DNA of 64,000 nucleotides, taken from an uncultured Gemmatimonadaceae bacterium (GTDB lineage Bacteria; Gemmatimonadota; Gemmatimonadetes; Gemmatimonadales; Gemmatimonadaceae). Where the stretch lies: contig CAWHHI010000012.1 in NCBI GenBank assembly GCA_963829055.1, forward strand, positions 192,001 through 256,000, in the 5' to 3' direction. The notes beneath the pieces are model-generated. The model made no database searches. It was not told the DNA's origin and worked only from the letters and a program-made list of their open reading frames with translations. The position numbers were made by a program, and so were the translations under genes. Of this stretch, positions 473 through 64,000 are shown in pieces (positions within the stretch are counted from its first letter, which is position 1; every line of letters begins with the position of its first letter).

Positions 473-1003
473 TCGAGCAAACCCTCGGGCGGATCGATCT
501 CCAGCCGACGCTCGGCGAGATCAACGCGGGTTACGACCTCACCACGAAACGGGATGAGGACGCTCCCACTCGGACGCCTAACGTCGAGCATGACGCCCTG
601 TGGCAACTCGTAGACGTCGGTCACCTCGCCGACAGGCTCGAGAGAGCCGGCGCGCACGACGGACAAGCCGAACAGGTCGTGGATGTAGACCTCACCTTCC
701 TCGACCGGCGCGAGCTCATTCACGCGGCGCGAGAAGGTAGCGCTCACGCCACAGCTCGGCCTCGTTGCGGTCGGCGATGCTATCGAACGCAACGATCCAC
801 CCGCCCTTGAATGGGCGGCTTTCCTCGACCACGAGCTCTCGTCGGTCGCGCGCGGGATCGCCATCGACGGTTCCCGCAAAAACACGACGGCCGGGCGCGA
901 AGACCGCGTCCGGCACGTTGGTCAGCGGCTCGACGACGAGCTCGCCGTGGATTCCGTGTGCTTTGCGGACGCGCCCGACGATCGCGAATTCGGGCGCCGT
1001 CAC
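469..1003 (-). CDS. rimM: 16S rRNA processing protein RimM (one apparent frameshift near 720-735)
   Basis: N-half [14 protein letters not shown] (ORF 716..1003) and C-half [12 protein letters not shown]...VLIPF...IDPPEGLLE (ORF 469..885); lies between rpsP and trmD. Confidence 0.92.
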
Positions 1004-1004
1004 G

Positions 1005-1340
1005 TCACTCCGCCGTGCCGGCGGGGGCGTCAGCAGCCGCCTCGCGGACCGGAACGGCCGCGGTGTTCAGCTTGCGGGCAAGACGCGCCTCGTGGCGGAC
1101 CTTCAGGAGCCCCGCCTTTCTGAGAAGCGAACGCACCGTGTCGCTCGGCTGAGCGCCGACGTCGAGCCAGTGATTCGCGCGCTCGGTGTTCAGCTGGACG
1201 GCCTGATCGCCCTGGCGCGGATAGTACTGGCCAATGATCTCGATGAAGCGTCCGTCGCGCGGGCTCGTCGACTCGGCGACGACAATGCGATAGGACGGCG
1301 AGTTCTTGCGGCCGGTGCGGCGAAGTCGAATGCGAACCAT
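1005..1340 (-). CDS. rpsP: 30S ribosomal protein S16
   Basis: MVRIRLRRTGRKNSPSYRIVVAESTSPRDGRFIEIIGQY...GAQPSDTVRSLL. Confidence 0.97.
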   Translation of the reverse strand: MVRIRLRRTGRKNSPSYRIVVAESTSPRDGRFIEIIGQYYPRQGDQAVQLNTERANHWLDVGAQPSDTVRSLLRKAGLLKVRHEARLARKLNTAAVPVREAAADAPAGTAE

Positions 1341-1447
1341 GGTGTGTTTCCCGTTAGGCGTGTCGTACACAACGCTGGGTTCCTCGCGCCTCCGGAAGGT
1401 CCGGAACGCACCCAGCAAGCAGCAACTAGCAAGCGGTAGCCAGCAAG

Positions 1448-2780
1448 TTACCGCATCCCCATCATCCCGGGCGGCAATCGCATGCCGCCGCCTGACGAGG
1501 CCTTCTTCATCATCTTCTTCATGTCGCGGAACTGCTCCAGCAGTCGGTTGACTTCGTTCGTCGGCCGGCCCGAGCCTTTCGCGATACGTGAGCGTCGCGA
1601 CCCGTTGATCAGAGTCGGATCCTTTCGCTCTGCAGGCGTCATGGAGAGCACGATCGCTTCGACGTGCTTCATGCGCTTCGGATCGAGATTGGCCTGCTTG
1701 AGCATTTTGGAATTCACGCCAGGAAGCATCTTCAGGATCCCTTCGATGGGACCGAGCTTCTGCATCTGACGCATGGCGGTGAGCATGTCGTTCAGGTCCA
1801 TGCCTTCCTTGCGGACCTTTTTCTCCAGCTTCCTCGCCTCGTCCTCGTCGAACGCCGACTGCGCCTTCTCGACGAGCGAGACCACGTCGCCCATCTGGAG
1901 AATGCGGCCGGCCATGCGCTCAGGATGGAACTCCTCGAGCGCATCGGTCTTCTCGCCGACGCCGATGTACTTGATCGGCTTCTTCGTGACGCCGTAGATC
2001 GACAGCGCCGCGCCACCGCGCGCGTCGCCATCGAGCTTCGTGAGAATCACACCGGTTATCGACAGCGCCTGGTCGAAGCCCTGCGCGATTCGCACGGCCT
2101 CCTGACCGGTCATGCCGTCGGCCACCAGAAGGATCTCGTCGGGGTGAACGGCTTCTTTCACCTTTACGAGCTCCTTCATCATCTCTTCATCGATCTGCAG
2201 TCGGCCTGCGGTGTCGATGATCACAACGCGGTCGCGGGCGCGGCGGGACTGTTCGATCCCCTGCTTCACGATCCGCACGACGTCCTTTGTCGTGCGATCG
2301 GCGTACACGGGAATCTCGAGCTGCGCACCGAGTGTTTCGAGCTGATCGATGGCGGCCGGCCGATACACGTCCGCGGCGATCAGTCGCGTGGGTCGCGACT
2401 CACCCTTGAGACGACGCGCGAGCTTGGCAGCGGTCGTCGTCTTACCCGACCCCTGTAGCCCCACCATCATCACGATCGTCGGTGGGAGTGGAGCTATGCT
2501 TGAGTCCCTCTCGATGCTCGCCGAGCATGGCGGCGAGCTCGTCGTGGACAATCTTGACCAGTTGTTGCGCGGGGGAGACCGTGCGCAACGCCGACACGCC
2601 GACGGACTTCTTCTCGACGCGCTCCAGGAACTCGCGCGTCAGCTGGAAGTTTACGTCAGCTTCGAGGAGAACTCGGCGAACCTCGCGGAGTCCTTCCTTG
2701 ATGTCGGCATCAGTAAGGACGCCACGGCCACGGAGGCGCGCAAACGTCGCTTCGAGTTTCTCGGACAGCTCATCGAACAT
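1448..2780 (-). CDS. ffh: Signal recognition particle protein Ffh (apparent frameshift near 2500)
   Basis: MFDELSEKLEATF N-domain, GLQGSGKTT, DTAGR, TKLDGDARGG, SRRSRIAKGSG and a Met-rich M domain. Confidence 0.96.
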
Positions 2781-2892: not shown

Positions 2893-5347
2893 ATGGCTCG
2901 TAACCAACGTAAAGAAGAGATCCTCAAATCCGAGCTCCCGCCGGCGCTGCCGCTCATGGCGCTGCGGTCCACCATCGTCTATCCGCTTGGTACGATCGCG
3001 GTGCAGATGGGGGCTCCGGAAAACCTGGCCCTGCTGCGCGCCAACGAGGAAGCGGGCCTGATCGTCGCTCTCGTCGTCGCCAGTGGCGATCACGATGAGC
3101 CGGTCGAGCCTGGAAAGTTCGTTGGGCGGGTGGGCGTTGCCGCCCGGGTGCATGAGCGGATCAATCTGCCGGGCGACACGGTGCAGATCACGCTGCAGGG
3201 ACTTCGTCGCATCACGATCGAGTCGATCGAGCAGACGAGCCCCTACGCTATCGCGTCGATCAAGGCGGCCAGAGAAACGCCGGCCGAGCCGGCGGAGCTC
3301 GAGGATCTCGTGGCGCGGGTGGTATCCGCCGCCGAGACGCTCGCGGACCTCGTCGACCGCATTCCCGGACGAGGTGCCGCAGATCCTCAAGATGAACGTG
3401 TCCGATCCAGGACGGTTCGCCGACCTCGCGGCCACGAACATGAACTTCCGGATCTCGGACAAGGACGAAGTCCTGCAGCGGCTCGATGTCGGCCAGCGCA
3501 TTCGGTTCATCCTGTCGCGCCTCGAGCGCGAAGTCGCGCGCGCTCGCGTCATGGAAGACGTGAAGCGCCAGACCGAGGTGAAGATCGAGCAGCATCAGCG
3601 CGAGTTCTATCTGCGCCAGCAGCTCCGCGCGATTCAGGCGGAGCTCGGCGAGGCAGACCCCGGTGAGAAGGAAGCCCTCGACACGCTCAAGAAGATCGAA
3701 GAGGCGAAGCTTCCCGAGAAGGTGGCGCAGGAAGCTCGGCGTGAGACCGAGCGGCTGCGCATGCTCTCACCGGCATCGAGCGAGTATCAGGTCATTCGCA
3801 CGTACATGGACTGGATCCTGTCGCTGCCGTGGCACAAGCGGTCGGGCGACGAGGAGATCGCGCTCAAGAAAGTGGAGGAGGCGCTCGACACGCGGCACTA
3901 CGGGTTGCTCGAGGCGAAAGAGCGCATCATCGAGTTTCTCGCGGTGCGCAAGCTCAGAGGCGGCGATCCGCATGGCCCCATTCTTTGCCTTGTCGGCCCC
4001 CCCGGCACCGGCAAGACGTCGTTAGGCGAGGCGATCGCGAAAGCCATCGGGCGCGAGTTCTACCGCATCTCCGTCGGCGGCGTCCGCGACGAAGCGGAGA
4101 TTCGCGGGCATCGACGGACGTACGTCGGCGCGCTTCCGGGGCTGCTCATCCAGGCGCTCAGGCGCGTGGGCGTGAAAGACCCGGTGCTCATGATCGACGA
4201 GATCGACAAGATGTCCGCCGGCGGACCGTCCGGCGATCCCACCGCGGCGATGCTCGAAGTACTCGACCCGTCGCAGAACGACGAGTTCGTCGATCACTAC
4301 CTGAATCTCCCGTTCGATCTTTCGGCCTGTCTGTTCATCTGCACGGCGAACAACCTGTTCGACATTCCGGCGCCGCTCCGCGACCGGATGGAAGTCATTC
4401 GCATCGCGGGGTACACGGTCGAGGAGAAGGTCGAGATCGCGTGGCGGTATCTCATGCCGCGGCTGCTCGAGGAGCATGGCATCACCGACAAGGACATTCA
4501 GTTCACGGACGAGGTGCTCAGCTTCATCTCGGGCCGCTACTCGCGTGAGGCAGGTCTCCGCAACTTCGAGCGCAACCTCGCGTCGATCATGCGGAAGCGC
4601 GCGCGGGCCAAGGCCGAGGGCGAAGAGGGCGCGTGGATCATCGACCTCGCGCGCGTCGAGCACATCCTCGGTGCGCCGCGCTACGCCATGGAAGAAGCGG
4701 AGAAGGAACCGGAGATCGGCGTCGTCACCGGCCTCGCCTGGACGTCGACCGGCGGTGACATCATGCTCATCGAGGCGCTGCGCATGGCAGGCAGCGGTCG
4801 CCTAACGGTAACCGGCCAGCTCGGTGACGTGATGCGCGAGTCCGTGGACGCCGCTCTGTCGTTCGTGCGGTCGCGCGCGAAGGTGTTGGAGATTCCGGAG
4901 CAGGACTTCCGCGAGAGCGACCTGCACATCCACTTCCCCGCGGGCGCGATTCCCAAGGACGGACCGAGCGCGGGCATCGCCGTCACGCTCGCCATCGCCA
5001 GCGTGTGGAGCCGGCGCCCCGTTAGGCGCGACGTCGCCATGACGGGCGAGGTGACGCTGCGCGGCAAGGTGCTGGAGATCGGCGGCGTCAAGGAAAAGAC
5101 CCTCGCGGCGTATCGCGCCGGTCTGCGCGAGGTGATCATGCCGAAGGGGAACGAAAAGGATCTGCGCGACGTGCCGCCGGAGGTGCGCGCGAACATGGCG
5201 TTCACGTTCGTGGCGACGATGGACGAGGTGCTCCGTCTTGCGCTGCTGCCAGCGCCGGCGCCGGAGCTGGCCGATCAGGTCGCACCGGAGATTCAGCCGA
5301 CGTCTGATCGCGCCACCGCCGAAGCGGAGGCGGTGCCGGCGGACTAG
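2893..5347 (+). CDS. lon: Lon ATP-dependent protease, copy 1 (apparent frameshift near 3365)
   Basis: LON N-domain (LPLMALRSTIVYP), Walker [33 protein letters not shown] catalytic Ser, IGGVKEK catalytic Lys. Confidence 0.95.
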
Positions 5348-5372: not shown

Positions 5373-6683
5373 TCAATCGCGCAACGTCACCTTCGTCAGG
5401 TCGATCGCGTCGGTGGGCGCGCCGGTCGGCACGTCCATGTAGAGGACGACCGGGCGTCCGCCGACTTCGGTCGTCGTGATCTGGATCGTGCGGCCGCCGA
5501 CGTCATAGGTGCGGGCCTCGCTGCTTGCAGCACGCGGTTTGGCGTTGCGGTAGCGCTTCAGGATGACCGTGTCGACGATGTCGAAGAATTCGCCGGCGTC
5601 GATTCTCGAGTCCCACACCGTCACCCACGCAATGCCGTCGCCGCCCTTCGTGTCGAACAGCACGAAGCGATCGCCATCCCAACCGGCGGCGCCGCGGATT
5701 GCCGCGTTCTGATCCTGCAGGTGCTGGAACAGGAACAGACGCGTCTCGAACTCGCCAAGGTTGTTCGAGTACACGCTCTTCGCTCCGCCGCGTGAGCTCC
5801 GGTAGCGTGACGACTGTTGGCGGATCGGCCTTGTCGAAGTAGGCGGACGTGTGGAGGATCTGCTCCGTCGACAGCGGCATCTCCGCCAAATGGAACCTTG
5901 CCCGGTCGCGTTTCGTCGAAGTGGCGCATGAACTCGGCGCCGCTCAGATACGGGAAGATCAGCGTCTCCTGGATGATCATCGGCGCGGACGAGAACACGG
6001 GCATGCTGCTCTGGCCTTCCCGGATCATGTCGCGCACGCGATCCCATCCGCCCGGCAGCTGTGCCGCGAGGTTACTCGTGCCGAGCATCGCCTGCACCTG
6101 CTCGAACGTCGCCTGCCCTTCGATGACGGCCTGCGCCGCGACCTGACGATCGTTGTCGCCCGTGATCTTCTGAATCGAGTCGAGATTCAGATACTGATCC
6201 TGTAGCGCGTGCACGAGCTCGTGGGTCACCGTCACGCCGACCATTGCCGGGTCGGCGCCGTCGACGACGTACAGGACCTTCGTGGCCGGATCGTAGTAGC
6301 CGACGACCTGCTCCGTGAGCAGCTCGAGCATGAACGGGCGCAGTTGCAGCGTATCGGAGATGAGCCCGAAGCGGCGATACGTGCGCTCGATGCGCGCTGA
6401 TCTCGGCCGCGGGCATCGACTCGTTGAACTTCTGCATGAGGAACGAGCGGACCTCGTCCTTCGATCGCCGCTCGACCTTCGGTGGCGTCTTGAAGGGCAA
6501 CCCGACCGCTTTCTCGATGCGCGGCACCGCGTCGTTCACTTCCTTTGCATAGGGGCCGGAGTTGCTCGCTGCGGAGCCTTTCGCTGCAGCGCCGCCGTCT
6601 CGCGAGCACGCACCTAACGTTGCGAGTGCCAACGAGCACAGGGCCGCGAGCGCACGTGCCCTAACGAGTCTTACTCCGTCCAT
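5373..6683 (-). CDS. Putative lipoprotein with zincin-like HExxH metallopeptidase motif (two apparent frameshifts)
   Basis: Lipobox-like LGAC; VVGYYDP...HELVHALQDQ...EGQA; FPYLSGAEF; AAGWDGD; pieced together from three frames. Confidence 0.65.
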
Positions 6684-10543: not shown

Positions 10544-11323
10544 ATGCACATTGCACTCACCATCGCCGGCTCCGACTCGGGCGGCGGCGCTGGCATCCAG
10601 GCAGACCTCAAGACGTTTCACCGGTTCGGCGTGTACGGAACGTCGGCCATCACGGCGTTGACGGCGCAGAACACGCGCGGTGTCGATCGAGTGGATCGCT
10701 GTGGACGCCAGCGTTCGTGCGACGGCAGATCGATGCCGTCGCGTCCGATCTGCGGCCGCACGCCGTGAAGAGCGGCATGCTCGGGACGGCCGCCATCGTG
10801 CGCGCAGTCGCCGACAGCGTGCGCGAACACCGGCTTGCACCGTTCGTCGTCGATCCCGTGATGGTCGCGACGTCAGGCGACCCGCTACTCGACACCAGCG
10901 CCGTCACGGCGGTTCGCGATGACCTAACGCCGCTCGCCGACCTCATCACGCCCAACCTCGACGAGGTCGCGGTGCTTCTCGGAGTGCGTCCTCGAGACGA
11001 AGGTGAAATGTGCGATGCGGCCGAGCGTTTGGTGCGCGAGCTCGGGGCGCGCGCGGCGCTCGTGAAGGGCGGCCATCTCGACGGCCACGACATCGTCGAC
11101 GTCCTGTACGACGGCCAGCTGCACATTCTGGCGGCGACCACGGATCGTTACCAGCAGCACGCACGGCACCGGCTGTACGCTGTCCGCCGCTATCGCGGCG
11201 CTACTCGCGCTCGGGCATTCGCTGCCGGATGCCGTGATGGAGGCGCTCGCGTTCGTCCAGCGCGCCATCGAGACGGCCCCCGGACTCGGCGGCGGACACG
11301 GCCCGCTCAACCACTGGGCCTAA
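10544..11323 (+). CDS. thiD: Hydroxymethylpyrimidine/phosphomethylpyrimidine kinase (two apparent frameshifts)
   Basis: [76 protein letters not shown]. Confidence 0.92.
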
Positions 11324-11349
11324 CGCATCACCACGCGAGCCGCGGGCGG

Positions 11350-13242: not shown

Positions 13243-13491
13243 CTAGTCGTTAGGCTCGTCGGCGTCGTGCCGGCGGCGGGCGGGCAGCACGCGGAAGATC
13301 GCACCACCGTGGAGGGGCGCATCGGGGGCGGTCGGAAGGCCGCGGCTGTCCGCGATCACACGTTCGCCGACAGCAACTTCGTCGGCCGCGGCGGCGTTCC
13401 AGGCGCGCACCGCGTCCAGCGCCGTCGAACCCGGCGGAAGGTCGAGACCCGTAGCGTTGACGTAGACTCGCATCGTGGTGGGGCGATTCAA
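13243..13491 (-). CDS. Small hypothetical protein, possible beta-grasp (ThiS/MoaD-like) fold
   Basis: MRVYVNATGLDLPPGSTALDAV...; tightly coupled between the nucleotidase and add; no C-terminal GG. Confidence 0.55.
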   Translation of the reverse strand: MNRPTTMRVYVNATGLDLPPGSTALDAVRAWNAAAADEVAVGERVIADSRGLPTAPDAPLHGGAIFRVLPARRRHDADEPND

Positions 13492-51938: not shown

Positions 51939-54900
51939 TTAGTAGCCGAGGCGGATGGAAAGCCCGACGCGGCGCGGGATCGGCAGGTTGAACGAATCGA
52001 CGGCGTCGAGGTAGTTCGAGTCGCGTCCACCACCGAGCGTGCGCCCGATGGCGTTCACCTCGGGGTCGGTGCCGACGTACTTCGTCCACAACGCGATGTT
52101 GCGCCCACTCAGCGTCAGCGCGAGATCTCGCGCGCCGACTCGGGCAGCGAATTTGTTCGGCGCCGTGTAGGTGATGCTCAGCTCGCGCCATCGTACGAAA
52201 TCCGCCGGCGAGTTCTGATTGAGACCATCGTACGGCGTGAGCGCGGCGAGACTGTAGACCCATTCCTTCGCCGCGGCGAGCCGCTGATCGACCGTGCTCG
52301 CGGGATTCTGGAGCGTCGCTCCAACGCGCGCGGACGCGGAGGTATTCCTCGCTCGCGTGCTCGCGTTCCGAAAGCCGCACGTGAGGCAGGTATAGGTGTA
52401 ATTCCCGCCCTTGTACTCGAACAGCGTATAGACGCGCCAGTTGCGGAACAACGTCAACGTTCCGCCCCACGCACCCGTGTAGTCGGGCGTCGGCTTCCCG
52501 AGGTCGGAATTCAGCCCGTTCTCGAGCAGGATGACGTTGCCGCTGAACAGATCGTTGAGGCTCCGCGGTGAGCCAAGAAACGTGCGAACCTGAGCTTCGG
52601 TGTCGGGTGCCCCATCGCCGTTGAAATCGTATGGAAGCTCACCGGCCTTCAGGCAGTTGGCGGACTGGCCGCCGCCACACGGCTGAAGAAGCTTCGCACC
52701 GAACAAGTGCCCGGGGTCGTAGCCCTCTCGCAGGAAGTTGCGATAACGCGGGTAGGAACCGCTCACTTTGAGCTCGGAAGCCCCACCGAGGCTGGTGATC
52801 TCCTGGTGCAGGAAGGCACCGTTGACGAACAGGTCGGCGTTTACGTTGGGCCGGTTCACCACGAGGCCGCGGAGCGAGAACTCCACGCCGTGCGCTTTCA
52901 TCTGCCCGATGTTCGAGAGTTGTCGCGTCTGGAAACCGCCCGAGAGGGGGTACTGCTTCTCGACGAGCAGGTCGTCGACGACGCGGTTCCAGTAGGTGGC
53001 CTGCAGACCAACGCGGTCACCCCAGAAGCCCGCCTCGAACCCAGCTTCGATTTCCGTCGAGACCTCGGGCTTGAGGTCGGGATTGCCGAGGTTGTCCGGC
53101 ACCAGGCCCGGAGCCCGACGCCCCACTGATGGCCTTGAATGTCGTCAGCCTGTCGAACGCGCCCGGCTGACGCCCCGACGTGCCGTAGGCGCCGCGCAAC
53201 CGCAGCGACGAGAAACCAGGCAGGTCCCAGCCCGCGTGATCGGTCGGAACTACGGAGAGGCTGACCTTCGGGTAGAGGACGCCACCAGCGTTTTCGCCGA
53301 ATGTGCTCGCGTAGTCATAGCGCGCGCCGACGGTCGCGAACACCCAGTTTTCCCAACCGAGTTGCTCCTGCGCGAAGAAACCGCCGTTGACGGTCTGCTC
53401 GATGCGGTCGTAGACGACCGGCTCCTCGCCCGCGCTCGCGACCGCAATCCCAGGACCCGGGAAGTTGTGGCTGAACCCACCCGGCTGCGTGATGCGCGAG
53501 ATGAATCCCTGCGCGCCGACGACGAACGACGAGTTGATGCGGGACGTGAAGTCACGCGACCAATTCGCCTTCGCGTCGAGTGTGATCTCACGATCGTTGC
53601 GGTCCTGGACCGTTTTCGCACCTAACGTGTCGTTGTTCGTGATCTGGTCGACGTTGTACAGGAATTCCTGGAAGCTGCTATTCTGCGAGCTCGTGTAGTC
53701 GACACCTACCGTGGTCGTGATGTTCAGCGACGCGAGCGGTGAGTACTGCGCATCGATTCCCGAGATGTAGCGGTCGACACCCTGCTTCGTGAGGATGCCC
53801 TGTAGCTCGTTCGGTGAGCCGAATGTGCCCTGCACGCCGTAGGCGTTGCCCGGCCCCTTGCACTTGCCCGGGGATGCGATGCCCAGGTTGGGATCGGTGC
53901 GGTCCGGATCGGAGTTTCTGCAGTTGGCGAGGTCCGGCTTGCCGAACAACGCCTGTGTGATCGGGCTGATAGATGTTGTTGGAGTTCTGGGGCGTCTCGA
54001 GGCGACTGTTCGTGTACGCGCCGCGGCCGGTGATCCGCAGCTTGCTGGTCGGCACCATGCTGACGTTGATCGTGCCCTGGGCGCGCTTGCTCAGGTCATG
54101 CGCCGGACCGATCGTCTGCCCGCCCCACGGACCATCCTCGTCGTAGTAGCGGCCAGACACGAAGTAGGTGAGTCCGCCGGCACCGCCGTTGAGCGACGCC
54201 GACACGGTGGAAGCCCTTCCCGTCTCGAACAGATTCGCGAGAAGCGGTTCGGCGAACGGCTGGAACGGCGTGATCGTTTGCCCCCAGAACTTACTGAGGG
54301 AATCCGCCTGCCCCTGGCGTAGGGCGTAGCCCCAGTTCGGCTCGAGGCGCCCGGTGGGGTACTTGATCGCCTCCTGCGCGAGGTTGAAGTCCCAGCGGGC
54401 GGCACCAGTCGTTCCCTTCTTGGTGAAGATCTGGATGACGCCGTTGGACGCCTCGGTGCCATAGAGCGTCGCTGCGGCGGCGCCCTTCAGCACTTCGATG
54501 CGTTCAATGGATGCCGGATCGATGTCGTCGAGGCGCGACGGCGAGCCGCCGCCGCCCGCGCCAATGTTGAAGCTGAAGTCGCCCGATGAGTTGATGCGGA
54601 CGCCGTCGACGAAGATGATCGGCTCGTTCGACTGCGAGAGCGATGCGTTACCCCGGATGCGGATACGCGCCCCTTCGCCCGTCATACCGCTCGATGGCAG
54701 GCCGACGAGTCCCGGCTCCTTTCCCTGAAGAAGCTCCGATGGCGTATTGATCGGCGCGTACTTCGGCGGTTCGATGTTTCCGATCGTGTTGCCGAGCTTC
54801 TTCACTTCAACGGCGCCACCGGTGCCTGTGGTGACGACGGCCTCGAGCTGAAGCACCGACTGGCTGATTTCGAAGTCGGCCGTCTTGATCTGGCCCGCGG

Positions 54901-55198: not shown

Positions 55199-55738
55199 GA
55201 GTTCCTCCCGCTTCGTGGGTGCCTTACACTGAACGGTACGGCCGGTCGGATGGCTGATCCGACACATCGAGCGCGCGTCATTCAATCAACGCCAACACAG
55301 CGGACGGTCATGACGCACAAGGAGTCGGGCTGATTCTCTTATCGTCTTACCATTTCGGTATCGATCACTCGTGGCGTGCCGCACTGACTCGGCACCACGC
55401 ACGCCTGTGACGAAACGTGACAACGGCGGGCTGGGTCGTTCGTACACGCTTTCGGGCGTAGCTTTATTACGATGGCGCTCGACGGCTTGTCAATAACGCC
55501 CTCTTTTTGCTTTACCCGCCGCGACACTAGGCCGGTGACCCGCATGAGTCTCGCGCCGTATGGCGGGATCGCTGGAGTGCCGCAGCAGTGAGATCCGTTG
55601 GGCGGCTCCAACACCGCAGCTGCGGGTGCTCGCCGACGGATCGGCAGCGAGCCCCCCGCGTCGGTCGACGGGTTGCCGCGCACGCACGACGCACGCCCAC
55701 GTTAGGCGTCGCGATCTGGTCACGCCCACGCTCACATA

Positions 55739-57208: not shown

Positions 57209-57312
57209 CTGATCGCATCAGCGGCGATCCTCGGCTGCGACGAGTCCGCGTTAGGTGATGTCGTAGCGGACCAGCCGCGCAGTGGTCACGGCGCCGTCGC
57301 CGGCGCCGTTCG

Positions 57313-57780
57313 CTAGAACGCGACGCCGATCAGGAACCTCGCGGTGCCGTACACGAACGGCGCGCTGTCGAACGCATCGGCGTCGCCGAGGATCCGTTTC
57401 GCACCGAGACCACTGCCGACGTAGAAGCGCCGGCCGCGACCAAGCAGCCAGTTGTAATCGACGTAAACAGCGATCGACGGGCTGGTCTCGTCGACCAGCG
57501 ATTCGACTCCGTTCTCCGTGACGTGCTCGCGAGTGTTCACCGCGCCTAACCCGAGACCGACGGCAAATGCACGCGGCGCTTCTTCGTTCGGGTACAGGCG
57601 CCCCTTCACCTCGAAGCTCGAGCGCGTATAGTCGCTCGGGGAGAAGTAGCTGAAGTTCGCGCCAACGGAGAACGCTCCCTGGATCGCCTGCTCCGCTTCG
57701 ATCGCGACGACCTCGAATGGAATGCCGAGCGGATTGATGGCGAAGACGTGCGTTCTATTGGGATGCCAGACGAACCGCAC
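57313..57780 (-). CDS. Small outer-membrane beta-barrel-like hypothetical protein (5' end unresolved)
   Basis: INPLG, alternating strands, YNWLLG, C-terminal RFLIGVAF. Confidence 0.55.
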   Translation of the reverse strand: MRFVWHPNRTHVFAINPLGIPFEVVAIEAEQAIQGAFSVGANFSYFSPSDYTRSSFEVKGRLYPNEEAPRAFAVGLGLGAVNTREHVTENGVESLVDETSPSIAVYVDYNWLLGRGRRFYVGSGLGAKRILGDADAFDSAPFVYGTARFLIGVAF

Positions 57781-58003
57781 CCGCGCTCGAGAAAACTAGC
57801 GATGTGCTGCGCGAGACAGGGCAAGGACACGGATGCGGCGCGACGCGCGCACCCGCGCGGCAGTGTGTGAGGAGCCGCTCATGGAGTCGGGTTGGTGCCC
57901 TTCCGGCCGCGGGTTAGGTTTCCGCTCGCGGCCGGGAGCCGGCCCACCATCGAACGACGCGGCGCTGCCCGGCGCCAGCGACATCCATTACGTGCCTCTC
58001 GTC

Positions 58004-59242
58004 ATGAACATCGAGATCACTCCAAAGAAGAGCGACGGCGTCGAACGCCTCCTGCAGATCTCGGTGCCGATCGAGACCGTCCGGGCCGCCGAGGACAAAG
58101 CCGCACGACGCTACGCGACCAGCGTTCGGCTCCCGGGGTTCCGCCCGGGCAAAGCGCCACCGGCGATGGTCAAGAAGAAGTTCGCCGATGCGATTCGGCA
58201 GGAGACGCTCGAGAGCCTTGTCCAGGAGGCCTACAAGGAAGTCCTCGAGCGCGAGCAGCTGAAGCTCGCGTCGCAACCGCACGTGCACGACGTGAAGTTC
58301 GGCGAGAACGAGCCGCTGACGTTCGAGCTTCACCTGGAGGTGCGGCCTGACATTCCACTCGCCCGCACGCAGGGCTTCCGCGTTCAACGCACCGAGCGCA
58401 CGGTCACGGACGAACAGGTCCGCGACCAGATCGAACAGCTACGCGATCAGCGGGCGACGTGGGCGCCGGTCGAGGACCGCGCCGCGCCGGGTGACATGGT
58501 CAACGTGGTGCTCGCGACCGCGGACGAAACCGGAGCCATGCCCGAGGGCAAGCCGTATCCACTCGTCCTTGGCGCTGGTCAGGCGATCGCTGGGATCGAA
58601 GAGCTGATCATGGAAGCCAGGCCCGGCGAGACCGTCGAGCGGCCCGTGCAATGGCCCGAGGATTTTCCGGACGAGGCGCAGCGCTCGCAGATGAAGACCG
58701 TGCGCGTCACGGTGCAGGATGTGAAGCGCAAGACCGTGCCCGAACTCGACGATGCCTTCGCGCGCGAGGTCGGTGACTTCGACTCGATGGACGCGCTCAC
58801 GAAAGCGGTGCGCGACGACCTCGAAGCGAACGCAGAGCGCGAGACGGAATCGGAAATCCGTCAGCGCCTGCTCGATGACATCATCGGCGCGAATCCGTTC
58901 GAGGTCCCGCCGAGCTGGGTCAGTCAGCTCGTGGAGGCGTACGGGAACGCCTACCAGGTTCCGGAGAGCGAGAAGGAAAAGTTCGCGGCGGAGTTCCGCC
59001 CGATGGCGGAGCGTCAGGTCCGTCGCGATCTCGTGATCGACACGGTGGCGGAGCGCGAGAACCTAACGGCAACGGAAGCGGATCTCGACGATCGCATCGC
59101 CGAAACAGCGTCGAAGCGCGGCGCGGATCCGGGACAGCTCTACGCGTCGCTGCAAAAGGCAGGGCGTCTCAAGGAGCTCGAGCGATCGATCACCGAAGAC
59201 AAGGTCTTCAAGTGGCTCCTCGAGAGGAACACGGTTGAATGA
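58004..59242 (+). CDS. tig: Trigger factor
   Basis: LPGFRPGKAP, FKBP-like middle domain, PELDDAFA; precedes clpP. Confidence 0.95.
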   Translation: MNIEITPKKSDGVERLLQISVPIETVRAAEDKAARRYATSVRLPGFRPGKAPPAMVKKKFADAIRQETLESLVQEAYKEVLEREQLKLASQPHVHDVKFGENEPLTFELHLEVRPDIPLARTQGFRVQRTERTVTDEQVRDQIEQLRDQRATWAPVEDRAAPGDMVNVVLATADETGAMPEGKPYPLVLGAGQAIAGIEELIMEARPGETVERPVQWPEDFPDEAQRSQMKTVRVTVQDVKRKTVPELDDAFAREVGDFDSMDALTKAVRDDLEANAERETESEIRQRLLDDIIGANPFEVPPSWVSQLVEAYGNAYQVPESEKEKFAAEFRPMAERQVRRDLVIDTVAERENLTATEADLDDRIAETASKRGADPGQLYASLQKAGRLKELERSITEDKVFKWLLERNTVE

Positions 59243-61411: not shown

Positions 61412-61420
61412 CAAGAGGCA

Positions 61421-61552
61421 AGCTGGTAGCTGGGTGGTCGTGCTTGTTGCTGGGTGATAGCTGGGTGGGGCGGGGTCGAGTCGACTCCGCCCTTTTCTAT
61501 CCAGCCACACCCAGCGTCACCCAGCCACCAGCACGACCACCCAGCAACAAGC
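61421..61552. repeat. Second palindrome of the same short-repeat family as 59253-59360
   Basis: gctggtagctgggtgg... left arm; cacccagcgtcacccagccaccagcacgaccacccagc right arm. Confidence 0.7.
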
Positions 61553-61594
61553 GCCCTTTGTCGCTGCAACCCGGCAACGCGGTACATTACGTCC

Positions 61595-64000
61595 ATGGCT
61601 CTGATCCTTACCCGCGACGCCGAGCGCTTCGAGGTACCCGACCGGCTTCCGGTGCTCCCGCTCCGCGACGTCGTGGTGTTTCCGTACGTCGTCATGCCGC
61701 TGCTCATCGGGCGCGCGCATTCCCTCGCCGCCGTCGACTCGGCAGCGGACGACGGCAACGTCGTGCTGCTCGTGGCGCAGCGGAACGCGGACCAGCAGGA
61801 CCCCGCGGCTGGTGACCTCTTCCGTATCGGTGTGGTCGCGCGCCTCATGCAGGTCGTGCGTCTGCCCAACGGCACCACGAAGATCCTCGTCGAGGGCATC
61901 GCCCGCGCGCGGGTCACGCGCTACGCCACCAGCGGCGGAACGTTGCGCGCGACGATCGCGCCGGAGCCGTTCGTGGACCCGGCGGAACCCGGCGAAAACT
62001 CGGCCCTCGGCCGCCGCGTGTTGTCGCTGTTCGAGGAGTACGTCTCCTTGCACCGGCGCATCCCGGCCGAAGTCGTGACGCTGGTGCAGGCAACCGCTTC
62101 GGAAGAGCGGCAGGCGTGCGCGGTATCCGCGCACCTGGCAGTCCGGCACGACGTGCGGCAGACCTTGCTGGAAGCACCGACCCTCCCCGCCCTGCTCTCC
62201 CAACTCGCGCAGCTTCTGGCAGCCGAGATCGAGATTCTACGCCTGGAGCGGAAGATCGAGGACGACGTCCGCGGCTCGCTGTTCCAGAATCAGCGCGAGT
62301 TCTACCTGCAGGAACAGCTGAAGGCCATTCACCGGGAGCTCGGTCAGGACGACGATGACTTCGGTGACCTGGAAACGGCCATCGAGAAGAAAGCGCTCCC
62401 GGAGCCGGTGCAGGCGCGCGCGTACCGCGAGCTCAGAAAGCTCCGGCGCATGTCGCCGCTGTCACCGGAGGCGACGGTCGCGCGCAACTTCGTCGACTGG
62501 GTGCTCGCGCTTCCATGGACAGAGCGGACGGACGACGCACTCGACGTCGCGAAAGCCCGCGTCGTGCTCGACGAGGACCACTACGGACTCGCCGAGGTGA
62601 AGGAGCGGATTCTCGACTACATCGCCGTGCTGTCGCTCGTCGGGAAGCTCGAGGGCCCCATCCTCTGCCTCGTCGGCCCCCCGGGCGTCGGCAAGACATC
62701 ACTCGGCCGCTCGGTCGCACGTGCACTCGGACGGCGGTTCGCGCGAATGTCGTTAGGCGGCGTGCGCGACGAAGCGGAGATCCGCGGCCACCGGCGCACG
62801 TATATCGGCGCGATGCCCGGGCGCGTGATTCAGGCAATGCGGCGAGCCGAGGTGGTGAACCCCGTCATCCTGCTCGACGAGATCGACAAGCTCGGGCAGG
62901 ACTACCGTGGTGATCCGGCGTCGGCGCTGCTGGAGGTACTCGATCCCGAGCAGAACCGCACGTTCAGCGATCACTACCTCGAGGTCGATTACGACCTGTC
63001 GCACGTTCTGTTCATCACGACGGCGAATTCCCTGGGCACGATTCCCGAGCCGCTCCGCGATCGCATGGAGATCATCCGGCTGCCCGGGTATCTCGACACG
63101 GAGAAGCAGGCGATCGCGCGACAGTTCCTGATCCCGAAGCAGATCCGTCAGAACGGACTCGATCCCGCCGCCGTGACGTTCGAGCCGGAAGCCGTGTCGT
63201 CGATCATCCATCGCTACACGCGCGAGGCTGGCGTTCGCGATCTGGAGCGGCGGCTCGCGCGCGTGGCCCGCAAGCTCGCACGGCGACGTGCCGAGACATC
63301 GGCAGCGCCAATCGCGAACGCCGCTCCGGAGTCGGACGCGGCCGTGAGCCAGGCGACGGTCCCGCCCGCGACGGCGAAACGGTCGCGCTCGAAGAAGGCC
63401 GCCAACGCCAACAGCGAGCCTGAAGCAGCTCCCGCGCCCGTCGCCGTCGCGCAGTCCGTAGGGCCCGACGATCTTCGCGCACTGCTTGGCGTCGCTCCGT
63501 ACGATCCTGACGATATGTCGCTCGACGACAAGGTCGGGGTGGCGACGGGCCTCGCCTACACGTCCGTGGGCGGAGAGACGCTGGAGATCGAGGTGTCCGT
63601 CGTCCGAGGACGCGGCAAGGTGCAGCTCACGGGCACGTTAGGCGACGTCATGAAGGAGTCGGCCACGGCCGCCTTGAGCTACGCGCGTTCGCGGGCCGCC
63701 GCGTTAGGCATCGATCGTGACTTCCATCGCAGCCGCGACCTGCACGTGCACATCCCCGCCGGCGCGACGCCGAAAGACGGCCCGTCGGCGGGCATCGCGA
63801 TCGCGACGGCGGTCATCAGCGCGCTCACCGGGCGGCCGGTTCGTGGTGACACCGCGATGACGGGAGAGATCACGCTGCGAGGGCGCGTGCTCCCGATCGG
63901 CGGCCTCAAGGAAAAATCCGTGGCGGCGCATCGCAATGGCATCGCCAACGTGATCATTCCGTACGGCAACGCGCGTGAGCTCGAGGAGTTGCCCGACGAG
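61595..64000 (+). CDS. lon: Lon protease, copy 2 (runs off the right edge; not in the ORF track)
   Basis: Hand translation from ATG 61595: [30 protein letters not shown]..., [37 protein letters not shown]; canonical tig-clpP-clpX-lon order. Confidence 0.95.

What the first reader, a model, noticed from the sequence alone, without database searches (positions are those of the whole stretch)
577..63708. Dispersed, strongly over-represented non-palindromic motif (C)GTTAGG / CCTAAC(G): candidate uptake, marking or architecture signal
Seen: by-eye scanning found about 56 exact hexamers (about 31 GTTAGG and 25 CCTAAC on the + strand, roughly one per 1.1 kb), about 46 of them the 7-mer CGTTAGG/CCTAACG. 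Examples are at 577, 1353, 4021, 4801, 5021, 6613, 6660, 10923, 11319, 11603, 11855, 13249, 14168, 14682, 15123, 18601, 19940, 20685, 21501, 22008, 22521, 24071, 25829, 26978, 27497, 28427, 31336, 32500, 33051, 35739, 37564, 40551, 40890, 45666, 46864, 47390, 48617, 48654, 49502, 53621, 55701, 57250, 59062, 62752, 63637 and 63703. A rough base-composition estimate (about 66% GC) predicts only 7-8 copies of the 7-mer, and TTA/TAA/CTA are otherwise scarce here. In genes it is read in several frames and imposes codons rare in GC-rich genomes: TTA-GGC (Leu-Gly, lon 4021), CTA-ACG (Leu-Thr, lon 4801), GTT-AGG (Val-Arg, lon 5021 and rimM), and stop codons (thiD TAA, phoU TAG). It is also intergenic. 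So the selection or mutational drive appears to act on the DNA, not the protein. Established: Chi and KOPS sites are strand-polarised, whereas DNA uptake sequences of Neisseria/Pasteurellaceae and cyanobacterial HIP1 are dispersed without such polarity and sit inside genes. Inference: an uptake-sequence-like signal, a nucleoid-protein site, or a methyltransferase-linked HIP1-like motif. I do not recognise it as described. I saw none in ffh, dnaK, clpP, clpX or crtI.
Basis: partly seen in the sequence, partly recalled or inferred. Interest (0 to 1): 0.88.

Follow-up and report, generated by a model that had tools for sequence, protein, structure and literature searches.

The report
Genome-wide DNA word CGTTAGGC, Gemmatimonadaceae
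This soil bacterium has written one eight-letter DNA word about 5,000 times, evenly spaced, into its genes, stop codons and spacers against its own codon habits, as Neisseria and Haemophilus do with their DNA-uptake 'self tags', but the protein that reads the word is still unknown.

Summary
The window holds 46 CGTTAGG (3.2 expected) and 56 GTTAGG (6.1 expected). The whole 7.78-Mb Gemmatimonadaceae genome holds 5004 copies of the core 8-mer CGTTAGGC. That is 19-38 times a Markov expectation and the highest-ranked 8-mer.

- **Placement:** Copies are equal on both strands, show no replication polarity, and use all four stop-free frames through rare codons. They fill 9-46% of the peptide positions that could encode them and peak at stop codons.
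- **Spacing:** They are far more evenly spaced than a codon-aware null, with 49 gaps under 150 bp against 227 expected.
- **Conservation:** They are conserved about twice as well as other 7-mers between species 78-80% identical. New copies are also still arising.
- **Absence:** Foreign or chimeric segments of the same assembly lack them.
- **Distribution:** About 87 of 401 family genomes (24 of 68 genera) are rich. The pattern is patchy and one clade uses a shifted dialect.

Tests for Chi/KOPS polarity, RecBCD/AddAB, Vsr, a co-distributed methyltransferase, attC structure and Neisseria-type ComP all failed.

The word equals the attC core of integrons in sister families.

The parts
576..583 (-). 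CGTTAGGC; rimM (C-part), sense, GTT-AGG-C
1352..1359 (+). CGTTAGGC; rpsP, antisense, CCT-AAC-G
4020..4027 (+). CGTTAGGC; lon-1, sense TCG-TTA-GGC. Same codon carries the word in 18 of 23 word-rich Lon rows and 0 of 58 poor rows
4800..4807 (-). CGTTAGGC; lon-1, antisense, xGC-CTA-ACG
5020..5027 (+). CGTTAGGC; lon-1, sense GTT-AGG-C. Genus relatives have GTC-AGG and poor relatives GTG-CGC
6612..6619 (-). CGTTAGGT; intergenic
6659..6666 (-). CGTTAGGG; intergenic
10922..10929 (-). CGTTAGGT; at the edge of a small ORF
11318..11325 (-). CGTTAGGC; intergenic
11602..11609 (-). CGTTAGGC; purine nucleoside phosphorylase, sense GCG-TTA-GGC
11854..11861 (-). CGTTAGGC; purine nucleoside phosphorylase, sense GCG-TTA-GGC. 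Poor relatives have Leu CTC/CTT/CTG here
13248..13255 (+). CGTTAGGC; intergenic
14167..14174 (-). CGTTAGGC; nucleotidase (a), sense CCG-TTA-GGC
14681..14688 (-). CGTTAGGC; nucleotidase (b), sense GTT-AGG-C. Not in L001-L003 (a gain in this genome)
15122..15129 (+). CGTTAGGC; nucleotidase (b), antisense CCT-AAC-G. Not in L001-L003
18600..18607 (-). CGTTAGGT; phoR, antisense CTA-ACG. Conserved in 5 of 5 genus genomes
19939..19946 (+). CGTTAGGG; phoR, sense GTT-AGG. Present in 0 of 5 genus genomes (a gain)
20401..20408 (+). AGTTAGGA; hexamer only, intergenic
20684..20691 (+). CGTTAGGC; intergenic. Conserved in 4 of 4 aligned genus genomes
21500..21507 (-). CGTTAGGC; TonB-dependent receptor, antisense CCT-AAC-G
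22007..22014 (-). CGTTAGGC; TonB-dependent receptor, antisense CCT-AAC-G
22520..22527 (+). CGTTAGGC; TonB-dependent receptor, sense GTT-AGG-C
24070..24077 (-). CGTTAGGG; orf588, antisense CTA-ACG
25828..25835 (-). CGTTAGGC; orf205, antisense CCT-AAC-G. Conserved in 3 of 3 aligned genus genomes
26977..26984 (-). CGTTAGGC; orf398, antisense CTA-ACG. Present in 0 of 5 genus genomes (a gain)
27496..27503 (-). CGTTAGGT; pstS-1, antisense CTA-ACG
28426..28433 (-). CGTTAGGG; pstS-1, antisense CTA-ACG
28507..28514 (+). GGTTAGGC; pstS-1, sense TTA-GGC (hexamer plus 3' C)
30295..30302 (+). TGTTAGGC; pstC, sense ATG-TTA-GGC
31335..31342 (+). CGTTAGGC; pstA, sense GCG-TTA-GGC
31464..31471 (+). TGTTAGGC; pstA, sense GTG-TTA-GGC
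32499..32506 (+). CGTTAGGG; intergenic, just after pstB-1
33050..33057 (+). CGTTAGGT; pstB-2, sense GCG-TTA-GGT. All 5 genus genomes have CTC here (a gain)
34083..34090 (+). GGTTAGGT; supplies the TAG stop codon of phoU
35332..35339 (+). TGTTAGGC; ppx, sense ATG-TTA-GGC
35738..35745 (-). CGTTAGGC; intergenic between ppx and ppk1
35786..35793 (+). TGTTAGGC; ppk1, antisense CCT-AAC
37563..37570 (+). CGTTAGGT; ppk1, antisense CTA-ACG. Present in 0 of 5 genus genomes (a gain)
38434..38441 (+). GGTTAGGC; pit-like, antisense CCT-AAC
40550..40557 (-). CGTTAGGC; deoC, sense GCG-TTA-GGC. Present in 0 of 5 genus genomes (a gain)
40889..40896 (-). CGTTAGGC; deoC, sense CCG-TTA-GGC. Conserved in 5 of 5 genus genomes
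45665..45672 (+). CGTTAGGC; htrA, sense ACG-TTA-GGC. The 4 aligned genus genomes have CTC/CTT (a gain)
46863..46870 (+). CGTTAGGC; intergenic
47389..47396 (+). CGTTAGGT; intergenic
48616..48623 (+). CGTTAGGT; orf535, antisense CCT-AAC-G. The 7-mer is conserved in 5 of 5 genus genomes
48653..48660 (-). CGTTAGGC; orf535, sense ACG-TTA-GGC
49501..49508 (+). CGTTAGGC; orf535, antisense CCT-AAC-G. The 7-mer is conserved in 5 of 5 genus genomes
53620..53627 (-). CGTTAGGT; intergenic
55700..55707 (+). CGTTAGGC; intergenic, upstream of crtI
57249..57256 (+). CGTTAGGT; intergenic, just after crtI
57544..57551 (-). GGTTAGGC; orf155, sense GGG-TTA-GGC
57912..57919 (+). GGTTAGGT; tig, sense GGG-TTA-GGT
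59061..59068 (-). CGTTAGGT; tig, antisense CTA-ACG
62751..62758 (+). CGTTAGGC; lon-2, sense TCG-TTA-GGC
63636..63643 (+). CGTTAGGC; lon-2, sense ACG-TTA-GGC
63702..63709 (+). CGTTAGGC; lon-2, sense GCG-TTA-GGC

Best explanation
CGTTAGGC (core GTTAGG, flanking C on each side) is a lineage-specific 'self' tag on double-stranded DNA. It is read by a sequence-specific protein of a horizontal DNA-exchange pathway. The most likely pathway is the DNA-uptake step of natural transformation, with a donor-side packaging or transfer step as a variant.

Fragments carrying the word are taken up or transferred preferentially and recombined into relatives. New copies therefore rise in frequency by molecular drive, and old copies are kept, even where they cost rare codons. 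One copy per fragment suffices, so copies end up evenly spaced at about one per kilobase.

Shown here:
- The abundance of the word.
- Its DNA-level, frame-independent placement.
- The lack of strand polarity.
- The over-even spacing.
- The continuing gain and above-background conservation of copies.
- The absence of the word from foreign DNA.
- The dialect shift between clades.
- The presence of ComEC and a PilQ-like secretin.

Inferred, not shown: that any uptake or transfer bias exists, and which protein reads the word.
For: **Abundance.** There are 5004 copies against 131 (order-1 Markov) or 257 (order-3) expected, and it is the highest-ranked 8-mer. The observed/expected ratio of 19-38 lies in the range of 15.7-65 quoted for newly described DUS dialects (passages of bioRxiv 10.1101/2025.10.24.684340).

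**Both strands, no polarity.** The genome has 2547 forward and 2457 reverse copies. In 50-kb windows with positive GC skew the counts are 976 and 919. In windows with negative skew they are 1387 and 1382.

**Placement at DNA level.**
- Frame xCG-TTA-GGC: 1265 copies.
- Frame xxC-GTT-AGG-C: 411 copies.
- Frame xGC-CTA-ACG: 584 copies.
- Frame xxG-CCT-AAC-G: 866 copies.
- Intergenic: 1530 copies.
- At gene edges: 348 copies.
- The two stop-containing frames: 0 copies.

**Saturation of possible positions.**
- 1268 of 5661 [SPTA]-L-G positions carry the word.
- 871 of 1906 P-N-[VADEG] positions carry it.
- 588 of 2946 [SCRG]-L-T positions carry it.
- 411 of 4353 V-R-[LPHQR] positions carry it.
- TTA is 1268 of 2835 Leu codons in the context NCG-Leu-GGC, against about 1.5% of all Leu codons.

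**Cheapest sites preferred.** 496 of 6181 called genes stop inside the hexamer. Density peaks five-fold at the stop codon and is two-fold raised over the next 60 bp.

**Even spacing.** Against random occupancy of peptide-compatible positions, gaps under 150 bp number 49 observed and 227 expected, while gaps of 300-2000 bp are in excess. The same holds for all copies against an exponential expectation. Of 845 genes of 1.5 kb or more, 115 lack the word, against 165 expected.

**Maintenance and gain.** Between species only 78-80% identical in DNA, 43 of 92 site-by-genome cells keep the 7-mer, against 19-23% of all 7-mers. Six window copies are unique to this genome, where relatives have common codons.

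**Foreign DNA lacks it.** The deserts C6:6854-55038, C6:591809-623330 and C11:7377-44055 carry second copies of ftsK, aroC, trpG, folD and others, only 47-60% identical to the native ones. Density rises with codon typicality from 0.68 to 0.95 copies per kb.

**Dialect.** Clade iii stresses GTTAGGC(G), while clades i and ii stress CGTTAGG(C).

**Machinery.** ComEC is present in 31 of 31 genomes and a PilQ-like secretin in 30 of 31.
Against: - No uptake or transfer bias was measured. No Gemmatimonadota transformation paper that bears on this was found: 0 papers hold Gemmatimonad plus 'uptake sequence', and the 8 listed of 30 papers holding Gemmatimonad plus 'natural transformation' are unrelated by title and abstract.
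- ComEC and the secretin are equally present in word-poor genomes, so they explain nothing about who has the word.
- The Neisseria receptor family ComP_DUS was not found in the rich genomes G000 and G014. The weak matches lie in G233 (rich) and in G390 and G016 (poor).
- The word is shorter (8 bp) than DUS/USS (9-12 bp).
- Inverted pairs are rare: 33 of 7083 gaps are +-/-+ pairs under 50 bp. By contrast, about half of DUS/USS copies lie in terminators.
- The distribution is patchy, with 24 of 68 genera rich, one genus split 8 rich to 11 poor, and at least 4 well-supported changes on the Lon tree. DUS and USS are family-wide.
- The exact identity with the integron attC core is not predicted by this reading.
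- Gene calls are from my own crude caller and cover 72% of the genome.
Confidence: 0.4

Rival explanations
1. The word is read by a tyrosine recombinase of the integron-integrase/Xer kind, or by a DNA-binding module derived from one. The chromosome-wide copies would be bare core sites (GTTRRRY type) serving as landing, pairing or regulatory sites. The integron attC core and the genome word would then share one reader.
For: - The 8-mer is identical to the 3' end of attC sites in cassette arrays of sister-family genomes. All 29 aligned attC sites of G021 and G019 end in CGTTAGGC and begin with an inverse core (G/T)CCTAAC about 85 nt upstream.
- An array lies beside intI fragments on G021:C80.
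- Integron integrases over the curated cut-off occur in 18 of 31 genomes of the order.
- The same word recurring in separate clades fits a reader of fixed, mobile specificity.
- Position 8 prefers C, then T (78% and 13%), matching the Y of the recalled GTTRRRY consensus (the consensus is recalled, not from a call).
Against: - IntI presence does not follow the word. It is over the cut-off in 4 of 8 rich and 14 of 23 other genomes. G002, G004 and G010 have none, and the copy in G014 is broken.
- Dispersed copies have no attC structure. The covariance model gives 0 matches in G000, though only 132-150 of about 8000 first-look candidates were scored. nhmmer over the whole genome gives nothing better than E = 9.5.
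- There is no excess of CCTAAC...GTTAGG pairs at attC distances.
- No cassette array lies beside the G000 intI-like gene.
- Thousands of active recombination sites inside essential genes would be hazardous.
- No known mechanism makes a recombinase multiply its own core site.
Confidence: 0.15
2. A local mutational drive, as proposed for HIP1 of cyanobacteria and for very-short-patch repair at methylated sites. A modification enzyme marks the word and a mismatch-correcting enzyme converts near-words into the word.
For: - One-mismatch neighbours at positions 2-7 are rare, with observed/expected of 0.17-0.44 for most. This would fit conversion into the word.
- The reverse complement, (G)CCTAAC, resembles the 6-7 bp asymmetric sites with a penultimate A of MmeI/BREX-type enzymes (recalled, not from a call).
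- An MmeI/Eco57I-type methyltransferase with an SNF2 helicase is conserved in the family.
Against: - Vsr was found in 0 of 8 rich genomes and in 3 poor ones.
- G000 has no match to PF01555, PF00145 or PF02384, and only a partial match to PF02086.
- The MmeI-type module is present in rich and poor genomes alike. G014 is 49% identical to both the rich G233 and the poor G390, and the G000 copy is broken into several frames.
- Neighbour depletion shows no transition-specific signature, and TA-containing words are rare anyway.
- A site-by-site mutational drive does not predict the 4.6-fold deficit of close pairs.
- The word is not palindromic.
Confidence: 0.1
3. A Chi-like or other repair/recombination signal that a helicase-nuclease or repair machine must meet within about a kilobase of any lesion. 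It would work in either orientation, for example attenuating a nuclease on self DNA or acting as a strand-discrimination site for mismatch repair.
For: - Even spacing with few long gaps.
- Self-specificity and absence from foreign DNA.
- An 8-mer, like Chi of E. coli (recalled).
Against: - There is no strand polarity relative to GC skew.
- RecC was found in 0 of 5 panel genomes.
- An AddB-type protein was not found in the rich genomes.
- The AddB/AdnA-like gene of G016 occurs in 6 of 31 genomes, none of them rich.
- Selection on single sites of this kind is weak, yet 9-46% of possible positions have been converted against codon bias.
Confidence: 0.1
4. A binding site of an abundant nucleoid-associated or chromosome-organising protein, present only in the word-rich lineages.
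For: - Thousands of evenly spaced, orientation-independent copies.
- Lineage specificity with a dialect.
Against: - No candidate protein was identified.
- Known architectural sites are few, long and often palindromic, or else polar (recalled).
- Selection per site would be weak compared with the codon cost shown.
- This reading does not explain the attC identity.
Confidence: 0.1
5. No signal at all: a by-product of composition, codon usage, a short mobile repeat, or an assembly artefact.
For: None found.
Against: - Dinucleotide shuffles, Markov models and peptide-preserving counts all reject composition and codon usage.
- Flanks beyond positions -2 and +9 are unconserved, so this is not a repeat element.
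- The word is present in independent assemblies.
Confidence: 0.01

Closest known systems
DNA uptake sequences: DUS of Neisseriaceae (10-12 bp, receptor ComP) and USS of Pasteurellaceae (9-bp core, predicted receptor ComN)
   Same: - Non-palindromic word at about one per kilobase on both strands, inside genes in the cheaper frames and just after genes.
- Observed/expected ratio of the same order.
- Evenly spaced, absent from foreign DNA, with dialects among relatives.
- A competence channel is present.
(comparison figures from passages of bioRxiv 10.1101/2025.10.24.684340. The even spacing of USS is recalled.)
   Different: - Different phylum.
- Only 8 bp.
- Hardly any inverted pairs.
- Patchy rather than family-wide distribution.
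- No ComP-type receptor found.
- Uptake bias untested.
- The word equals an integron attC core.
Integron attC core site (R' box, GTTRRRY; consensus recalled)
   Same: The 8 letters are identical to the 3' end of attC in the cassette arrays of G021 and G019, in 29 of 29 aligned sites.
   Different: Dispersed copies lack the inverse core at attC distance and the folded arms. They lie in housekeeping genes at synonymous positions. IntI presence does not follow the word.
HIP1 (GCGATCGC) of cyanobacteria
   Same: A hyper-abundant 8-mer inside genes, without polarity and specific to a lineage.
   Different: HIP1 is a palindrome tied to cognate methyltransferases (recalled). Here the word is asymmetric, and neither Vsr nor a co-distributed methyltransferase was found.
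Chi and KOPS/architecture-imparting octamers
   Same: Over-represented 8-mers that mark the cell's own chromosome.
   Different: Those are polarised with replication, whereas here 976 forward and 919 reverse copies lie in positive-skew windows and 1387 and 1382 in negative-skew windows. RecC and AddB were not found in the rich genomes.

Membership tests
DUS/USS uptake signals | Short asymmetric word, hyper-abundant (about 1 per kb), both strands equal | tested here: met
   6391 CGTTAGG and 5004 CGTTAGGC copies in 7.78 Mb, with 2547 forward and 2457 reverse. The word is 8 bp, shorter than the 9-12 bp of DUS/USS.
DUS/USS uptake signals | DNA carrying the word is taken up or transforms preferentially | not testable with these tools
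0 papers hold Gemmatimonad plus 'uptake sequence'.
DUS/USS uptake signals | Dedicated receptor (minor pilin ComP; predicted ComN) | tested here: not met
   PF16732 ComP_DUS has no match in the rich genomes G000 and G014. Weak pilin-type matches occur in G233, G390 and G016. ComN has no model in the libraries and was not tested.
DUS/USS uptake signals | Competence machinery present | tested here: met
   ComEC is in 31 of 31 genomes and a PilQ-like secretin in 30 of 31, all below the curated cut-off. Both are present in word-poor genomes too.
DUS/USS uptake signals | Many copies in terminators, often as inverted pairs | tested here: inconclusive
   There is a five-fold peak at stop codons and a two-fold excess in the next 60 bp. 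Only 33 of 7083 neighbour gaps are inverted pairs under 50 bp. Terminators were not predicted.
DUS/USS uptake signals | Dialects among related lineages; vertical, family-wide presence | tested here: inconclusive
   A dialect shift is seen in clade iii. However, only about 87 of 401 genomes in 24 of 68 genera are rich, and genus g52 is split 8 to 11 (hand tally).
Integron attC site | Inverse core and core about 60-140 nt apart with imperfectly paired arms | tested here: not met
   The attC covariance model R1 gives 0 matches in G000 and 54-85 in the control G021. nhmmer finds none in G000. There is no pair excess.
HIP1-type / VSP-repair-driven word | Palindromic word with cognate methyltransferase and T:G mismatch endonuclease | tested here: not met
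   The word is asymmetric. Vsr was found in 0 of 8 rich genomes. PF01555, PF00145 and PF02384 have no match in G000. The MmeI-type module is not specific to rich genomes.
Chi | Polarity with replication; RecBCD or AddAB present | tested here: not met
   No polarity. RecC was found in 0 of 5 genomes. AddB-type proteins were not found in the rich genomes.
KOPS / architecture-imparting sequences | Strong strand skew switching at origin and terminus | tested here: not met
   The Spearman correlation of GC skew with word skew is 0.16 over 145 windows of 50 kb, and pooled counts are near 1:1.
REP/MITE-type repeat | Extended conserved sequence or hairpin around the core; extragenic | tested here: not met
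   Flanks return to background beyond positions -2 and +9. 3126 of 5004 copies lie wholly inside called genes.

The most novel reading that the evidence does not exclude
The genome word and the integron attC core are two uses of one recognition system. A tyrosine-recombinase-type or transformation-linked reader native to Gemmatimonadales recognises CGTTAGGC. Word-rich chromosomes would then be genome-wide fields of minimal integron core sites, acting as landing pads for cassettes, as raw material for new cassettes, or as tags that couple DNA uptake to integron capture. This would tie the unknown origin of integron recombination sites to a chromosome-wide self tag.
Probability: 0.12. Interest if true: 0.92.

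Novelty: new variant of a known kind. Interest (0 to 1): 0.78.

Why it matters
Hyper-abundant self tags that bias DNA exchange are established in only two families of Proteobacteria (passages). A third, independent case would come from a mostly uncultured soil phylum. It would show that such tags are a general outcome of DNA exchange rather than a peculiarity of mucosal pathogens.

The system also comes with natural experiments. Genera, and even species within one genus, differ by 4000 copies against fewer than 70.

There are practical uses as well:
- The word is a strong binning and contamination marker for Gemmatimonadaceae MAGs. It exposed foreign segments in this assembly.
- Its identity with the attC core means that attC-targeted PCR surveys of soil cassettes could prime on these chromosomes. 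This is an inference and was not tested.

Tried and rejected
- **Maximal-order Markov ranking.** This hid the word because its own sub-words absorb the signal. Orders 1 and 3 were used instead.
- **First gene caller.** It covered only about 50% of the genome and was replaced.
- **Apparent other dialects in relatives.** Motifs such as CCTGAAC and GAAAGCA turned out to be a different thing, namely inverted arrays of tandem heptamers.
- **Regex attC finder.** It found only 3 of about 24 known sites in the control and was dropped for a covariance model and nhmmer.
- **The run of same-strand copies beside the G000 intI-like gene.** No attC structure was found there.
- **Word deserts as mobile islands.** Rejected. 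They hold ordinary housekeeping genes that duplicate native ones at 47-60% identity, so they are foreign or chimeric DNA.
- **AddB-like gene as an anti-correlate of the word.** Rejected. It occurs in only 6 of 31 genomes.
It is present in rich and poor genomes alike, and rich ones do not cluster.
- **attC counts against word richness.** There is no pattern within the family. The model was trained on sister-family sites.
- **Depletion in highly biased genes.** Not seen.
- **Base modification from public reads.** All 24 runs are kept as contigs, so nothing could be read.
- **Earlier-notes look-ups by place and by sequence.** Both gave nothing.

Full report
**1. The observation**

The window is G000:C12:192001-256000 of a 7.78-Mb, 20-contig, 66.6% GC genome. 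Record titles of the closest Lon loci name Gemmatimonadaceae MAGs of the phylum Gemmatimonadota.

The window holds 46 CGTTAGG, at exactly the coordinates listed, against 3.23 expected from dinucleotide shuffles (largest shuffle 8). It holds 56 GTTAGG against 6.13 expected, 31 on the + strand and 25 on the - strand. Thirty of these are the full 8-mer.

Genome-wide there are 7103 GTTAGG, 6391 CGTTAGG and 5004 CGTTAGGC.
- The base after GTTAGG is C in 78% and T in 13% of copies.
- The base before CGTTAGG is G in 41% and T in 28%.
- Further out the flanks are at background.

Expected counts of the 8-mer are 131 (order-1 Markov) and 257 (order-3). It heads the 8-mer ranking under both models and is 31st of 65,147 8-mers by raw count, among pure G+C words. 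A maximal-order Markov null hides it, because its own sub-words carry the excess.

**2. Anatomy in this genome**

I called genes with a codon-likelihood caller of my own, which covers 72% of the genome and is therefore crude.

Of the 5004 copies, 3126 lie inside called genes, 348 straddle a gene edge and 1530 are intergenic. Density is 0.56 per kb in coding DNA and 0.70 per kb outside it.

All four frames without a stop are used, and the two frames that would create TAG or TAA are empty:

| Frame | Copies |
|---|---|
| xCG-TTA-GGC | 1265 |
| xxG-CCT-AAC-G | 866 |
| xGC-CTA-ACG | 584 |
| xxC-GTT-AGG-C | 411 |

The word occupies a large share of the peptide positions that could encode it:

| Peptide context | Positions carrying the word |
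|---|---|
| [SPTA]-L-G | 1268 of 5661 |
| P-N-[VADEG] | 871 of 1906 |
| [SCRG]-L-T | 588 of 2946 |
| V-R-[LPHQR] | 411 of 4353 |

In the context NCG-Leu-GGC, TTA is used 1268 times out of 2835. TTA makes up only 2756 of about 178,000 Leu codons overall.

Copies pile up where they cost least. 496 of 6181 called genes have their stop codon inside the hexamer (280 of 788 TAA stops and 216 of 1610 TAG stops). Density peaks five-fold at the stop and stays two-fold raised for 60 bp beyond it.

There is no replication polarity. In 50-kb windows with positive GC skew there are 976 forward and 919 reverse copies. With negative skew there are 1387 and 1382. GC skew itself tracks gene orientation (rho 0.46), so the test has power.

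Density does not fall in genes of strong codon bias. It rises from 0.68 to 0.95 per kb across deciles and is 0.83 in the top decile.

**3. Spacing**

Neighbouring copies avoid each other:

| Gap | Observed | Expected (exponential) |
|---|---|---|
| under 50 bp | 92 | 319 |
| 50-100 bp | 122 | 304 |
| 100-150 bp | 158 | 291 |
| 300-1000 bp | 3275 | 2553 |
| 3-10 kb | 332 | 446 |

A stricter null places copies at random among the 14,866 peptide-compatible positions, with frame-specific occupancy. Against it, gaps under 150 bp number 49 observed and 227 expected, each bin with a standard deviation of about 8.

Fewer long genes are empty than chance predicts: 115 of 845 genes of 1.5 kb or more, against 165 expected.

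A site-by-site mutational process does not predict this pattern. A process in which one copy per DNA segment is enough does.

**4. Deserts**

Seven gaps exceed 10 kb, where 0.7 are expected. The largest are:
- C6:6854-55038 (GC 0.70)
- C11:7377-44055
- C6:591809-623330 (GC 0.73)

Their genes are not mobile-element genes. They are housekeeping genes such as ftsK, chorismate synthase, trp genes, DAHP synthase and folD. These duplicate native copies elsewhere in the genome at only 47-60% identity.

The deserts are therefore DNA of another organism, either mis-joined in this MAG (estimated contamination 3.95%) or acquired. Either way they are an internal control. GC-rich DNA processed in the same assembly lacks the word.

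**5. Evolution of single copies**

In orthologues from word-poor relatives, the same residues are encoded by common codons. For example, lon 4020 is TCG-TTA-GGC here and TCG-CTC/CTG-GGC there, with some TTG forms. Site 5020 is GTT-AGG here, GTC-AGG in genus relatives and GTG-CGC elsewhere.

In Lon, codon 313 carries the word in 18 of 23 word-rich rows from all rich clades and in 0 of 58 poor rows. Other Lon copies are clade-specific.

I compared five congeneric genomes that are only 78-80% identical in DNA. 43 of 92 site-by-genome cells keep the 7-mer (23 of 51 for the 8-mer), against 19-23% (15-19%) of all 7-mers (8-mers) in the same alignments. These cells are not independent, because the genomes are kin.

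Sites fall into two classes:
- Kept in every genome: for example 18601, 20684, 40890, 48616 and 49501.
- Unique to this genome: 19939, 26978, 33050, 37563, 40551 and 45665, where relatives have CTC/CTT or CGN codons.

Old copies are therefore maintained and new ones are still being made.

**6. Distribution**

Among 31 relatives, all 7 genomes of the genus hold 2500-5100 copies. G014, of another genus, holds 6360 in 5.1 Mb. Most of the others hold 6-60.

I surveyed 401 family genomes of at least 80% completeness. By my hand tally, about 87 genomes in 24 of 68 genera hold at least 100 copies per Mb.
- Genus g9 reaches 1150-1340 copies per Mb.
- Genus g52 is split. Eight species hold 1586-4141 copies and eleven hold 4-66.
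- One of those eleven, G370, and some other word-poor rows in the denominators are flagged unpublished.

Across 251 genomes of the phylum, enrichment outside the family appears only in genus g102 of family f2, with up to 180 copies per Mb. Genome G030 of family f3 is also enriched.

On a Lon tree of 81 rows, the 21 rich rows need at least 7 changes of state. At least 4 are forced by well-supported branches, and shuffled labels need 18.8 on average.

A dialect exists. Clades i and ii have C before GTTAGG in about 90% and C after it in 70-77% of copies. Clade iii has C before in only 53%, C after in 97%, and then G in 64%.

**7. The integron link**

In word-poor genomes of sister families the few copies cluster on one strand about every 550 bp. 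These clusters are integron cassette arrays.

Each copy is the 3' end of an attC site of classical build: (G/T)CCTAAC, about 85 nt of imperfectly paired arms, then CGTTAGGC. In the alignment of 29 sites, all 8 letters are invariant. One array adjoins intI fragments.

The word therefore equals the local attC core. But the dispersed copies are bare words:
- A covariance model of these attC sites finds 54-85 matches in the control G021 and none in G000. Only 132-150 of about 8000 first-look candidates were scored in G000.
- A sequence profile run over the whole G000 genome finds nothing better than E = 9.5.
- Core/inverse-core pairs at attC distance are not in excess.
- The G000 intI-like gene, which only just reaches the cut-off, has no array beside it.
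- IntI over the cut-off occurs in 4 of 8 rich and 14 of 23 other genomes.
- attC counts show no pattern within the family.

**8. Tests of known mechanisms**

- **Chi/KOPS:** no polarity. RecC was found in 0 of 5 panel genomes. AddB-type proteins were not found in rich genomes. The AddB/AdnA-like gene of G016 occurs in 6 of 31 genomes, none of them rich.
- **VSP-type drive:** Vsr was found in 0 of 8 rich genomes and in 3 others.
- **Methyltransferases:** I used a panel of three rich genomes (G000, G014, G233) and two poor ones (G390, G016). G000 has no match to PF01555, PF00145 or PF02384, and only a fragmentary match to PF02086.
- **MmeI/Eco57I-type module:** A methyltransferase of this type with an SNF2 helicase is conserved in rich and poor genomes alike. 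G014 is 49% identical to both G233 and G390. The G000 copy is broken into several frames. This assembly splits other genes too (rimM, ffh), so the breaks may be assembly errors.
- **Competence:** ComEC is in 31 of 31 genomes and a PilQ-like secretin in 30 of 31, so neither discriminates. ComP_DUS was not found in G000 or G014.
- **One-mismatch variants:** Positions 1 and 8 tolerate T, with TGTTAGGC at 435 copies and CGTTAGGT at 827, ten- and thirteen-fold over expectation. Changes at positions 2-7 are rare. This reads as a position-weighted recognition site, not as a transition-specific repair signature.

**9. Reading**

The anatomy matches that of DUS and USS on the following points:
- density
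- both strands used equally
- cheaper frames and gene ends preferred
- even spacing
- dialects
- absence from foreign DNA
- observed/expected ratio in the published range (passages of bioRxiv 10.1101/2025.10.24.684340)

That preprint treats such signals as known in Neisseriaceae and Pasteurellaceae. I saw only passages of it, and only the search listing and abstract start of the ComN preprint.

I therefore commit to a self tag multiplied by biased DNA uptake or transfer, at 0.4. The gaps in this reading are:
- No bias has been measured.
- There is no receptor.
- The distribution is patchy.
- The attC identity is unexplained.

The rivals are set out in their own sections.

**10. Novelty**

- No paper in the library holds the 7- or 8-mer in this sense. 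There was 1 hit, on an unrelated chemokine review.
- None holds Gemmatimonad together with 'uptake sequence'.
- The 8 listed of 30 papers with Gemmatimonad and 'natural transformation' are unrelated by title and abstract.
- Three earlier notes of this scan describe the same word in other Gemmatimonadaceae genomes. They are not independent evidence, but they agree with what I measured here.

Noticed in passing
G000 genome-wide; L026:4572-12092, L057, L013:12014-12154, L078:150-250, L079, L071:15762-15842: Intergenic arrays of tandem heptamers or octamers arranged as inverted pairs that could form hairpins, with each lineage using its own unit ((CCTGAAC)n, (GAAAGCA)n, (AGGGAAG)n and so on). In G000, the 10-mers AGTCCCCAGT and GGGACTGGGG (212-246 copies, 40-80 times over an order-3 Markov expectation) look like the same kind of array.
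   Followed up: partly
window 23303-23434: A short intergenic repeat with two inverted halves has dozens of 42-130 bp copies at 73-98% identity in all five congeneric genomes. It also gives depth spikes of 100-430 in metagenome contigs.
   Followed up: no
G000 C6:6854-55038, C6:591809-623330, C11:7377-44055: Word-free segments with deviant GC (0.70-0.73 on C6). They hold second copies of single-copy housekeeping genes (ftsK, aroC, trpG, folD, DAHP synthase) only 47-60% identical to the native ones. This is probably chimeric or contaminant DNA in the MAG.
   Followed up: yes
window 472-1003 (rimM), 1451-2834 (ffh), 9643-10450 (bepA-like), 51942-55144 (susC-like): Several conserved genes are split into two adjacent ORFs. 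This suggests frameshift errors in this long-contig assembly, or real decay.
   Followed up: no
L161:6032-11877, L162:3750-9235, L163:6030-11431, L164:5494-10411 (G000 C8:73.5-78.4 kb): A conserved pair of a roughly 1100-aa MmeI/Eco57I-type N6-adenine methyltransferase-domain protein and a roughly 840-aa SNF2 helicase occurs in both word-rich and word-poor family members. The G000 copy is broken into several frames.
   Followed up: partly
L087 (G021:C80), L088 (G021:C95), L089 (G019:C3), G026:C3/C4, G020:C8, G029:C1: Large integron cassette arrays with highly uniform attC sites of about 96-109 nt occur in sister families of the order. G021 alone has about 50 attC sites.
   Followed up: partly
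L158:633-7021 (G016:C48): A pair of roughly 1080-aa ORFs resembles an AddAB/AdnAB helicase-nuclease. It occurs in only 6 of the 31 related genomes searched.
   Followed up: partly
window 48215-49819: A 535-aa ORF gives a weak match to a DNA-translocating ATPase family (CedD, 44 bits against a cut-off of 600). It carries three copies of the word, two of them as a close inverted pair.
   Followed up: no
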